Positions 36,700 to 38,340 of a DNA stretch of 39,926 nucleotides are shown here, one piece after another (the first letter of the stretch is position 1; every line of letters starts with the position of its first letter). The notes under the pieces were generated by a model. The model was given only the letters and a program-made list of their open reading frames with translations, was not told the origin of the DNA and searched no databases. Source of the stretch: Rotaria magnacalcarata (lineage: Eukaryota); assembly GCA_965140935.1 (NCBI GenBank), contig CBCSLL010001219.1, forward strand, positions 1 through 39,926, given 5' to 3'. The translations under genes and the position numbers were made by a program.

Positions 36700-36975
36700 A
36701 CGTGAAAGAACGCGTTTTCGAAAAAATTGAACGTATTTTATCGACTACAAACGCGTTCTAAGAACAAATTGACGCGTTCAGACGCGTTTCTCAAAATTTT
36801 GAACGCGTTCGAACGCGTACTTGTTGGTAACCAACGCGTTTTTATCTTATAGAACGCGTTAATAGTGAAGGCGTCTTTTATCGCACGAACGCTTTCAACT
36901 TGTATGCGTTTGAACTTGTTCGCGAGTAATTCGTTCTTATAGTTAGAAAATCCGTTTCTTCAAAAACGCTTGGAA
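36700..36975. repeat. cluster A of the palindromic decamer GAACGCGTTC and close variants, at least 10 copies
   Basis: gaacgcgtttt, aaacgcgttct, gacgcgttca, gacgcgtttc, gaacgcgttcgaacgcgtac, caacgcgttttt, gaacgcgtta ... Irregular 20-45-bp spacing. CpG-containing motifs are otherwise rare in this window. Confidence 0.8.
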
Positions 36976-38038
36976 ACGTATACTGAAGAACTTGTTCAAC
37001 AACTTTCAGAACACGTTTTTTTATGTAGTGAAAAAGTGCTCATTTTAACTTAATGGAATTCATTACTTGAAATGTATTGAAATACATGTAACGAAAGTGC
37101 TATGTCAATTAAGAAATATGTGTCAACATGAATAAATTTCTTTCTGTTGCAATGCACTGAAAGGTAATGTCTTGTTAGGCAAAGTGATCATCTATCTAGG
37201 GTTTCGTCATAAATGATTTTCCGTTTTCCTAAACTAATTTGTTTTTATCAAACGAATTCGCTAATCTCATGCTTTTTTAATGTACATTCTCAAATCGTAA
37301 ATTCTTTCTTTTATTTGCAAAATAGTAATCTGGAACGTTTCAATTGATTTTAAACATTAAACAGAAATTTTGCAAAAGTTATACTAGTATCTGTCTCAAA
37401 TGTATTCATCACATTTTTATTTGCCATCGAACGCGTCGCTTATTGTTGCTCATAATAAAAATCAGAATTGTTCATCGATTTCTAATTAATTTCTATTAAA
37501 TTTAGCTTTTGTCGATTTAAATTTATAATCAATTCAACTTTTTTAAATTAACAAAAATTTTATATTTACTCAAATCGATCGTAGAATGTAAATTCAATTT
37601 AAACTAATTTAATTAGATTTAAATTCGATAAAAAGTACAGTAAATAAATTTAGATCGCATAAGAAATATTTAAGTCAAATTACATGAATTTTAATTGAAT
37701 TTGAACAACTTTGTATTGAATTTTTATTAATGTAAGCTAGATTAAAAAAATTTTATTAAATATCAAAAAAATATTAAAAAGTTAAATTTTCGATATTTTA
37801 TTTTAAAAGAAATTAAAGTTTTTTAAATTTATTTTTGAATTTATTAATTTTTTTGTAAACGTAAATCGATCAGTCTTAAGTATAATTTTCGTTAAGTCAG
37901 AATAACTTTTGTTTAATACAAATAGAAAATTTAGCACTTCAAACATACGTAAGCATAGTTCATTCGGCTATTCACTACTTCGAAACTACAAGATTATCTG
38001 GTCGAATCCACTCTACGGTAGTAAAAACAAAACGAATT

Positions 38039-38340
38039 GGAACGCGTTCAGTGCGAACACAAGTATTCGAATAGAGGAACCAACAGTATGAAAACTTATA
38101 CGAATAGCTAAGAAACATGTTCGAGACCATCACAGAGTTGAAAATACAATAAATAAATAATTTTTTTTCTTCTAAACAAGAACGCGTTCTTACCGCGAAA
38201 AACGTGTTCCTATGGAACGATCAGAACGCGTTTCTTTTATTTAAAAGAACGCGTTTTTCATTACACAAACGCGTCTGAAAAAGTCGAAAAAAGCGTCTTC
38301 ACAACGCAGTCTTTTATCTCGACAACGCGTTCTTATCCGT
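38039..38340. repeat. cluster B of GAACGCGTTC-type motifs, ~9 copies
   Basis: ggaacgcgttcag, agaacgcgttctt, agaacgcgtttc, agaacgcgttttt, aaacgcgtctg, caacgcgttctt. Separated from cluster A by a ~1.05-kb, >80% AT core (37000-38030). Confidence 0.8.

What the first reader, a model, noticed from the sequence alone, without database searches (positions are those of the whole stretch)
36700..38340. Two clusters of the palindromic decamer GAACGCGTTC flanking a ~1-kb extremely AT-rich core
At least 19 copies of GAACGCGTTC or one-off variants sit in two ~300-bp clusters at 36700-36975 and 38039-38340. CpG motifs are otherwise sparse in this window. The core ACGCGT is self-complementary, the signature of a homodimeric DNA-binding protein site or of a structured repeat. 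The clusters bracket 37000-38030, which is >80% A+T and full of short aatttaaat-type repeats. The arrangement of motif array, AT core and motif array resembles a nucleation or binding platform such as an origin, boundary, centromere-like or piRNA-cluster-like regulatory region. It could instead be the two ends of a degenerate foldback element. The duplicated 10-bp-satellite block and a gene start lie immediately downstream.
Basis: seen in the sequence. Interest (0 to 1): 0.6.

Follow-up and report, generated by a model that had tools for sequence, protein, structure and literature searches.

The report
Foldback-type transposon relic in a rotifer
The two clusters of GAACGCGTTC-like sites are the inverted ends of one 1.7-kb non-coding mobile-element-like insertion in the genome of the bdelloid rotifer Rotaria magnacalcarata. 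This is an ordinary kind of feature, although no second copy could be found to prove that it moved.

Summary
The motif clusters are real and far beyond chance. All 10 exact AACGCGTT and 15 of 16 ACGCGT sites in the 40-kb window lie in 36708-38332. Several details were overstated: there are 11 decamers within one mismatch, not 19; the core is 76% A+T, not over 80%; and the window is not CpG-poor.

These share an exact 15-mer, CATCCCATGGAAAAA, and have sharp outer edges. A candidate 4-bp target-site duplication, AGTT, flanks them. Nothing inside the unit is coding.

The window is Rotaria magnacalcarata. It matches three assemblies at 100% and a fourth at 99.8%, and all four carry the unit. A P-superfamily transposon with its own subterminal 10-bp arrays lies 216 bp downstream.

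Best reading: a non-autonomous, foldback-type class II transposon, probably a relic, whose palindromic sites are transposase-binding sites.

Main weakness: no second copy, empty site or autonomous partner turned up in about 155 kb of other bdelloid DNA or in the pattern scans. Whole Rotaria genomes could not be searched. The superfamily is therefore unresolved and mobility is inferred. Low interest.

The parts
36667..38373 (.). Whole unit (1707 bp): TIR, motif-rich arm, AT-rich non-coding core, motif-rich arm, TIR
   Evidence: The inverted-repeat pair bounds it. The flanks 36300-36666 and 38374-38589 show no similarity to the arms beyond shuffles. It is present unchanged in L017-L019 and with 2 substitutions in L020.
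36663..36666 (.). Candidate target-site duplication, left copy (AGTT)
   Evidence: In a systematic scan of symmetric boundaries, the 4-bp perfect match is obtained only at 36667/38373. Chance is about 1/256 per register. The alternative is an 8-bp TSD, TAAGTTCA/TGAGTTGA (6 of 8), with boundaries 36669/38371.
38374..38377 (.). Candidate target-site duplication, right copy (AGTT)
36667..36727 (+). Left terminal inverted repeat, CACCATCCCATGGAAAAAT...; the outer ~40 nt are motif-free
   Evidence: 61 nt, 77% complementary to the right end, or 80% with gaps at BLAST E = 7e-8. The exact 15-mer CATCCCATGGAAAAA lies at 36670-36684.
38313..38373 (-). Right terminal inverted repeat; its reverse complement reads CAACATCCCATGGAAAAAA...
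   Evidence: The two termini joined by a linker fold as a DNA hairpin of -40.4 kcal/mol, z = -11 against 200 shuffles.
36708..37018 (.). Left subterminal arm: 8 ACGCGT cores (36710-36859), then degenerate copies out to about 37018
   Evidence: Successive ACGCGT cores are 41, 21, 10, 21, 10, 21 and 20 bp apart. These spacings are multiples of about 10.3 bp (R = 0.99; 0 of 5000 random placements match). Part of this reflects a 31-bp tandem unit.
38040..38332 (.). Right subterminal arm: 6 ACGCGT cores plus degenerate copies
   Evidence: Spacings are 140, 20, 24, 23, 20 and 56 bp, with no significant helical phasing. It aligns to the reverse complement of the left arm over about 160-200 nt with gaps.
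37019..38039 (.). AT-rich non-coding core (about 76% A+T; 85.6% in 37480-37860), with one isolated motif copy at 37429-37438
   Evidence: Composition. The longest stop-free stretch touching the unit is 81 codons, with no Pfam hit above noise. No Rfam hit comes near a gathering score. The weak self-complementarity is AT-rich low complexity.
38590..38972 (+). Separate neighbouring element: older solo left end of a P-superfamily-like transposon (TIR plus 10-bp GAAGTACNNN array)
   Evidence: 85% identical to L001-L003 copies in other genomic contexts. The array is reported.
39150..39926 (+).
   Evidence: 81-95% identical to L001-L003. ORF2 homologues P0001-P0008 occur in Rotaria species.

Best explanation
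The locus is one 1.7-kb non-autonomous class II (cut-and-paste, TIR-type) transposon with foldback-like architecture in Rotaria magnacalcarata. It is most likely an old, immobile relic.

Each end has a terminal inverted repeat of about 20-60 nt beginning 5'-CA. Behind each repeat is a roughly 300-bp subterminal arm holding 6-9 copies of the palindrome (R)AACGCGTT(Y), spaced about one to two helical turns apart. The AT-rich middle is filler with no gene.

Inferred mechanism:
1. A transposase made by an autonomous relative binds as dimers to the palindromic sites.
2. The multiple sites load both arms and help pair the two ends.
3. The element is cut at the CA/TG termini and reinserted, duplicating a short target (AGTT here).

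Shown: the motif enrichment, the inverted arms, the sharp TIR boundaries, the absence of coding sequence, the transposon-rich neighbourhood, and presence in all four assemblies.

Inferred: mobility, transposase binding, and the superfamily.
For: 1. TIR: 61-nt inverted repeat at the outer edges of both clusters. It contains an exact 15-mer unique to these two sites. BLAST E = 7e-8. Hairpin z = -11.
2. Boundaries are sharp: the flanks do not resemble the arms.
3. A perfect 4-bp direct repeat, AGTT, abuts both termini, which start CA...TG.
4. Motif arrays are confined to the two subterminal arms in mirror arrangement. Spacing is regular at about 10-24 bp. This is the layout of transposase-binding subterminal repeats in Ac, En/Spm, P and Foldback elements (established knowledge).
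5. There are no ORFs, Pfam hits or Rfam hits inside.
6. Context: a P-superfamily-like TIR element lies 216 bp away and uses the same design, a TIR plus a subterminal short-repeat array. That family has an 8-bp TSD and a Tnp_P_element hit at 28.3 bits in a full copy. The window also holds mariner-like and Helitron-like elements.
7. The octamer is absent from 155 kb of other bdelloid DNA, so it is not a general regulatory word.
8. Bdelloid DNA transposons are reported as diverse and mostly low-copy (PMC7943196). A rare family is therefore expected.
Against: - No second copy, empty site or autonomous partner was found. The metagenome pattern scan gave one chance phage hit. The bacterial and archaeal genome scan gave 2 chance hits and the viral scan gave 0. 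BLAST against all fetched Rotaria loci found nothing. A phmmer search with an arm translation against 1.84 billion proteins gave 0 hits.
- Repetition, the defining property of a transposon, is therefore unproven. None of these searches covers a whole Rotaria genome.
- The TSD is only 4 bp and is ambiguous with an imperfect 8-bp alternative.
- The arms are only about 60-80% alike, so the unit is old or was never a clean TIR element.
- The one possible relative, R. socialis L031 about 6760-7017, is not significant once corrected for search space (E about 0.06).
Confidence: 0.62

Rival explanations
1. The unit is a local inverted duplication that never transposed. A motif-rich segment was copied in reverse orientation by a replication or repair error, such as fold-back priming, and the arms have since diverged.
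For: Only one copy is known. The arms are just 60-80% alike beyond the tips. The window contains other foldback structures (1269-2459, 16635-17598).
Against: This does not explain why a palindromic octamer was amplified 15-18 times in the first place. It does not explain why the best-conserved part is the outermost, motif-free 19 nt. It also does not explain why a direct AGTT abuts both tips.
Confidence: 0.15
2. The unit is a host cis-acting platform. Arrays of sites for a dimeric host DNA-binding protein flank an easily melted AT-rich core and act as a replication origin, insulator or boundary, or small-RNA source.
For: Site density is very high, and the left arm is helically phased (about 10.3 bp). 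The AT-rich centre is flanked by inverted site arrays, as in several viral origins (analogy from general knowledge only). The unit is unchanged across R. magnacalcarata assemblies.
Against: The octamer occurs nowhere else in 155 kb of bdelloid DNA, including other gene-flanking regions. Phasing is absent in the right arm and partly reflects a 31-bp tandem duplication. The identity between assemblies reflects a clonal species, not constraint: the surrounding 21 kb is equally identical. The closely related R. socialis is not collinear here. The terminal inverted repeats and the TSD-like repeat have no role in this model.
Confidence: 0.08
3. The unit is a remnant of an integrated viral or episomal replicon, for example a repeat region or terminal structure of a DNA virus or a Maverick/Polinton-like element.
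For: Palindrome arrays around an AT-rich core resemble viral origin or homologous-region repeats (analogy only).
Against: There are no viral or Polinton genes within the window. The viral-contig scan gave no hits. The size and the TIR-bounded structure fit a small class II element better.
Confidence: 0.03

Closest known systems
Foldback (FB) elements of Drosophila and foldback-type elements reported in bdelloids
   Same: Both have long inverted arms built from short, roughly 10-31-bp spaced subrepeats, a non-coding middle, and the ability of the ends to snap back. The left arm here has 10-, 21- and 31-bp spacings.
   Different: FB arms are long, regular tandem arrays, and FB makes 9-bp TSDs (own knowledge). 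Here the repeats are irregularly spaced copies of a palindromic octamer. No 9-bp TSD exists. No sequence relationship could be tested.
Subterminal transposase-binding repeats of Ac/Ds (hAT), En/Spm (CACTA/CMC) and P elements
   Same: The architecture and presumed function are the same: a short TIR, then 100-300 bp carrying many copies of a 6-12-bp site in both arms. The termini are 5'-CA...TG-3'. A 4-bp TSD with a CAC start would fit the Chapaev branch of the EnSpm/CMC group (own knowledge). Repbase classifies non-autonomous elements by exactly these features (PMC4455052).
   Different: The site here is a perfect palindrome, so it is orientation-free. No transposase is known for it. No perfect 8-bp (hAT/P) TSD or 3-bp (CACTA) TSD is present. 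The termini do not match the neighbouring P-like family.
The neighbouring Rotaria P-superfamily-like transposon (window 38590 onward; L001, L004, L034)
   Same: It is in the same genome and only 216 bp away. It shares the design: a 30-bp TIR followed by a subterminal array of short repeats (10-bp GAAGTACNNN, 12-16 copies) at both ends. It has non-autonomous deletion derivatives of about 1.8 kb.
   Different: It has a different TIR and a different repeat unit. It has a clear 8-bp TSD, multiple copies in several Rotaria species, and a full copy with a Tnp_P_element-domain ORF. The AACGCGTT unit has none of these.
MITEs
   Same: Both are non-coding and TIR-bounded, with an AT-rich interior and a location in non-coding DNA near genes.
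   Different: At 1.7 kb it is well above the usual MITE size (under about 800 bp, own knowledge). MITEs are defined by high copy number, which is not seen here.

Membership tests
Class II TIR (cut-and-paste) transposon, non-autonomous | Terminal inverted repeats at both ends with sharp boundaries to unrelated flanks | tested here: met
   61-nt TIR, exact shared 15-mer, flanks unrelated, hairpin z = -11.
Class II TIR (cut-and-paste) transposon, non-autonomous | Target-site duplication directly abutting both termini | tested here: inconclusive
   a perfect 4-bp AGTT, or an imperfect 8-bp repeat (6 of 8). Each has about 0.4% chance per register, but several registers were tried and there is only one copy to judge from.
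Class II TIR (cut-and-paste) transposon, non-autonomous | Multiple dispersed copies, or a polymorphic or orthologous empty site | tested here: not met
   None was found in 155 kb of other bdelloid DNA or in the pattern scans. All four R. magnacalcarata assemblies carry the unit. The search was far from genome-wide, so this is absence of evidence only.
Class II TIR (cut-and-paste) transposon, non-autonomous | An autonomous relative with the same termini that encodes a transposase | not testable with these tools
   Whole Rotaria assemblies and Repbase/Dfam cannot be searched by DNA here.
Foldback (FB) family | Arms made of regular tandem subrepeats, with a 9-bp TSD | tested here: not met
   The repeats are irregularly spaced. 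Every 9-bp register has at least 5 mismatches. The resemblance is architectural only.
EnSpm/CMC (Chapaev branch) | 5'-CAC termini, 4-bp TSD, subterminal repeats, CMC transposase | tested here: inconclusive
   The left terminus is CAC, the right is CAA, and AGTT is 4 bp. The TSD sizes for this group are from my own knowledge. No transposase is available to test.
P or hAT superfamily | 8-bp TSD (hAT target consensus nTnnnnAn) | tested here: inconclusive
   The best 8-bp candidate is TAAGTTCA/TGAGTTGA, 6 of 8. It does not fit nTnnnnAn. The termini are unlike the adjacent P-like family.
MITE | Short (under about 800 bp) and high copy number | tested here: not met
   1707 bp, and a single copy in the accessible data.
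Replication origin or host binding platform | Occupancy by initiator or host factor; the same motif recurring at other such sites | not testable with these tools
   No functional data are available. The motif does not recur in 155 kb of other bdelloid DNA, which argues weakly against this.

The most novel reading that the evidence does not exclude
The unit is the only visible trace of an undescribed DNA-transposon lineage, or a domesticated derivative of one, whose protein recognises arrays of the perfect palindrome AACGCGTT. Alternatively, and less likely, it is a host-maintained binding platform such as an origin or boundary that merely has transposon-like ends. The evidence does not exclude either reading, because no relative, partner protein or functional data could be obtained.
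Probability: 0.15. Interest if true: 0.5.

Novelty: new member of a known kind. Interest (0 to 1): 0.22.

Why it matters
It matters little beyond annotation. If confirmed, it adds one low-copy, unclassified TIR/foldback family to the bdelloid repeat catalogue.

It also flags a probable annotation problem. The NCBI gene model starting at window 34051 runs straight through this unit toward the ORF2 of the neighbouring P-like transposon, so it is probably chimeric.

The palindromic, CpG-rich binding-site arrays would be a convenient handle for identifying the cognate transposase. They could also be used to ask how bdelloid silencing systems treat CpG-dense transposon ends. That use is speculative.

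Tried and rejected
1. Looking for other copies.
- The TIR-plus-motif pattern in metagenome contigs gave one phage integrase contig by chance.
- GTDB genomes gave two bacterial MAG chance hits.
- Viral contigs gave none.

2. Sampling Rotaria DNA. I fetched 35 loci through neighbouring proteins and BLASTed the unit against them. Only the same locus was recovered.

3. Looking for an empty site.
- R. socialis haplotypes are 98% identical but collinear only up to window 29604.
- The Rotaria sp. Silwood1 locus is not collinear.
- No empty site was obtained.

4. A phmmer search with a 73-codon arm translation against 1.84 billion proteins gave 0 hits.

5. Coding and RNA content. Pfam on all stop-free stretches gave only noise. 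Rfam gave only sub-threshold noise.

6. ORF restoration. Removing the unit in silico does not restore any ORF.

7. A 14-nt match of the right tip to a cystatin-like exon in L031 looked interesting, but it is at chance level (E = 0.2).

8. A possible decayed relative in R. socialis L031 (86 nt at 67%, plus degenerate motif copies) fails after correction for search space, and the arm alignments are only z = 2-3.

9. A literature search for the motif together with 'transposase' returned only primers and cloning sites.

10. Heat-shock element, E2F-type and MCB/CGCG-box readings of the motif were considered from memory and dropped. The spacing and sequence do not fit, or no test is possible.

Full report
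ORGANISM AND LOCUS

The window is eukaryotic. It carries a PARP/VIT/VWA gene with EF-hand exons, a PIF1-type Helitron helicase and an EryCIII-like glycosyltransferase.

The glycosyltransferase ORF is 100% identical to Rotaria magnacalcarata proteins P0074 and P0078. Window 16.4-38.38 kb is 100% identical to three R. magnacalcarata assemblies (L017-L019) and 99.78% identical to a fourth (L020). In 36000-38380, L020 differs by two substitutions only. The feature is therefore a stable part of this clonal species' genome.

CHECKING THE OBSERVATION

The motif enrichment is real.
- The decamer GAACGCGTTC with up to one mismatch occurs 12 times against 0.72 expected. Eleven of these lie in 36708-38332.
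- ACGCGT occurs 16 times against 4.2 expected, 15 of them in the region.
- All 10 exact AACGCGTT octamers of the window are inside the unit.
- The octamer does not occur at all in the other 38 kb of the window or in 117 kb of non-redundant bdelloid loci fetched later.

Three details were overstated.
- There are 3 exact and 8 one-off decamers. The count reaches 18 only when two mismatches are allowed.
- The core 37000-38030 is 76% A+T. Only 37480-37860 reaches 85.6%.
- The window is not CpG-poor: observed/expected is 1.09. The arms are CpG-rich at 2.3-2.6.

ANATOMY

- A 61-nt inverted repeat lies at 36666-36726 / 38314-38374, 77% complementary without gaps and 80% with gaps, at BLAST E = 7e-8.
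- It sits at the outer edge of both clusters.
- Its outermost part is motif-free and contains an exact 15-mer, CATCCCATGGAAAAA. That 15-mer occurs only at these two sites, in opposite orientation.
- The left terminus reads CACCATCCCATGGAAAAAT. The reverse complement of the right terminus reads CAACATCCCATGGAAAAAA.
- Joined by a linker, the two termini fold as a DNA hairpin of -40.4 kcal/mol (z = -11).

Inward of the termini, the left arm aligns to the reverse complement of the right arm for about 160-200 nt with gaps. Outward, similarity stops: the flanks 36300-36666 and 38374-38589 resemble the arms no more than shuffled sequence does.

I scanned symmetric boundaries systematically.
- A perfect 4-bp direct repeat, AGTT, abuts the termini when the unit is taken as 36667-38373, which gives 5'-CA...TG-3' ends.
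- The only alternative is an imperfect 8-bp repeat, TAAGTTCA/TGAGTTGA (6 of 8), for 36669-38371.
- No 3-, 5- or 9-bp candidate exists.

The motif copies follow the consensus (R)AACGCGTT(Y).
- In the left arm, successive ACGCGT cores are 41, 21, 10, 21, 10, 21 and 20 bp apart. These are multiples of about 10.3 bp (R = 0.99; 0 of 5000 random placements match). Part of this reflects a 31-bp tandem unit.
- In the right arm, spacings are 20-24 bp and are not significantly phased.

The interior has no coding or known RNA content.
- The longest stop-free stretch is 81 codons.
- Pfam gives only noise and Rfam only sub-threshold noise.
- Removing the unit in silico restores no ORF, so it lies in non-coding DNA.

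SURROUNDINGS

The 10-bp satellite blocks and the 'gene start' downstream belong to a different repeat family. Window 38590-38972 and 39150-39926 match copies in other genomic contexts (L001-L004) at 81-95%.

That family has these features:
- a 30-bp TIR, CAAGGGGGAACAAGCGGACTTCTGTACTTC;
- GAAGTACNNN arrays just inside both ends;
- a clean 8-bp TSD, CATTGTAT, in L001;
- a full copy of about 6 kb in R. sordida (L034 3045-9082), in which a 407-aa ORF hits the P-transposase HTH domain PF12017 at 28.3 bits against a cutoff of 23.

The ORF at window 39402 onward is this family's second gene. A proven TIR transposon with the same design, a TIR followed by a subterminal short-repeat array, therefore lies 216 bp from the unit.

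The window also holds a Tc1/mariner-like element with 87-nt TIRs (4387-5702), Helitron helicase ORFs, and other foldback structures.

SEARCH FOR RELATIVES

This is the weak point. None of the following recovered a second copy:
- pattern scans built from the TIR plus the first motif, which found only chance hits in metagenome, prokaryotic and viral collections;
- BLAST of the unit against every Rotaria locus I could fetch;
- an exhaustive protein-space search with an arm translation, which gave 0 hits.

No empty site was obtained either. R. socialis haplotypes are 98% identical but collinear only up to window 29604, and Rotaria sp. Silwood1 is not collinear.

One possible decayed relative exists in R. 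socialis (L031 about 6760-7017, minus strand). It shows 86 nt at 67% identity to window 37945-38030, followed by about 170 nt with degenerate AACGCGTT-like sites. Against local shuffles this scores z = 7.5. After correction for the full search space it is only E of about 0.06, and standard BLAST scoring misses it. I do not count it as evidence.

None of these searches covers a whole Rotaria genome. Bdelloid DNA transposons are reported to be diverse but mostly low-copy (PMC7943196).

INTERPRETATION

These features are the standard anatomy of a non-autonomous class II transposon of the foldback or subterminal-repeat type:
- terminal inverted repeats with sharp edges and CA/TG tips;
- a short flanking direct repeat;
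- mirror-image arms packed with a short binding-site-like repeat;
- a non-coding AT-rich middle;
- a transposon-rich neighbourhood.

The most likely mechanism is inferred, not shown. A transposase supplied in trans binds the palindromic octamers as dimers. Multiple sites on both arms promote end pairing. Cleavage then occurs at the termini, and integration duplicates 4 bp.

The arm divergence of 20-40% and the invariance among assemblies suggest an old, inactive copy. I put this reading at about 0.62.

The rivals are:
- a one-off local inverted duplication (0.15);
- a viral or episomal remnant (0.03).

The host-platform idea is weakened in several ways. The octamer is totally absent elsewhere. 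Phasing is missing in the right arm. In a clonal species, identity across assemblies is not evidence of constraint, since the surrounding 21 kb is equally identical. That model also gives no role to the TIR tips or the AGTT repeat.

COMPARISON WITH KNOWN SYSTEMS

The unit works like Foldback elements and like the subterminal transposase-binding regions of Ac/Ds, En/Spm and P elements. Membership in any superfamily cannot be decided.
- CAC/CAA termini with a 4-bp TSD would point to the Chapaev branch of EnSpm/CMC (TSD sizes from my own knowledge).
- The imperfect 8-bp alternative would point to P or hAT.
- The 9-bp TSD of FB is not present.
- It is too long, and too rare in the data reached, to be called a MITE.

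Repbase assigns non-autonomous elements by exactly these terminal and TSD features (PMC4455052), and that needs several copies.

VERDICT

This is an ordinary kind of genomic feature. It is a probably new but unremarkable member of a known kind, with unresolved family assignment because only one copy could be examined.

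Noticed in passing
window 38590-38972 and 39150-39926; L001 9371-11188; L004 5331-9648; L034 3045-9082: A P-superfamily-like TIR transposon family found across Rotaria species. It has a 30-bp TIR, subterminal 10-bp GAAGTACNNN arrays at both ends, and an 8-bp TSD (CATTGTAT in L001). The full ~6-kb copy has a Tnp_P_element-domain ORF (28.3 bits) and a second ORF with no Pfam domain. 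The window holds two left ends of this family in tandem, 560 bp apart: an older one (~85% to L001) and a younger one (~95%).
   Followed up: partly
window 34051 to beyond 38380 (L017 17254-21583): The NCBI gene model (396-416 aa) starts inside ORF 33958-34578 and runs through the whole AACGCGTT unit toward the ORF2 of the P-like element. It is probably a chimeric mis-annotation with the unit inside an 'intron'.
   Followed up: no
window 34670-34746 (and 32863-32889); L004 ~5320; L031 ~7019: Short inverted stretches of GGGTGT/TGTGGG-like repeats, resembling the bdelloid telomeric hexamer (own knowledge). In the other loci they lie next to transposon ends or fragments.
   Followed up: no
window 4387-5702: A Tc1/mariner-like element with 87-nt TIRs (77%) enclosing minus-strand ORFs 4517-5116 and 5213-5572. 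The second ORF has a weak HTH_32 hit. The DDE region gave no Pfam hit and was recognised by eye only.
   Followed up: no
window 6844-9643: Helitron-type PIF1-like helicase split into two ORFs (PF05970, E = 2.7e-22; weak UvrD_C_2 hit).
   Followed up: no
window 1269-2459; 15137-15299; 16635-17598: Other foldback or hairpin structures. One is a nested palindrome with 231-nt arms at 94% and a 59-nt spacer. Another is a set of inverted repeats in the region annotated as the EF-hand/PARP gene.
   Followed up: no
window 29604 onward versus L007-L016, L021-L022: R. socialis haplotypes are 98% identical to the window up to 29604. They carry a TPR gene missing from the window and then diverge completely. 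There is a large structural difference between the two sister species downstream of the glycosyltransferase.
   Followed up: partly
L031 6760-7017 (R. socialis): A possible decayed relative of the AACGCGTT unit: 86 nt at 67% to window 37945-38030, then ~170 nt with degenerate motif copies. It lies 1.3 kb from a truncated copy of the P-like family. It is not significant after correction for search space.
   Followed up: partly
L031 925-1040 (R. socialis): A near-perfect hairpin with ~40-nt arms that contain TAACGCGTAA. It is unrelated in sequence to the unit studied.
   Followed up: no
window 30194-30374: A 49-bp tandem repeat, 3.7 copies, 94% matches.
   Followed up: no
window 26780-28380: An EryCIII-like/GT28 glycosyltransferase gene. 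Many of the database matches in the 53-64% identity range are metagenome (JGI/ENA) or Logan-assembly proteins with no organism given, some labelled YjiC-family UDP-glycosyltransferase or sterol 3beta-glucosyltransferase. This could fit a horizontally acquired gene family, which bdelloids are known for (own knowledge).
   Followed up: no
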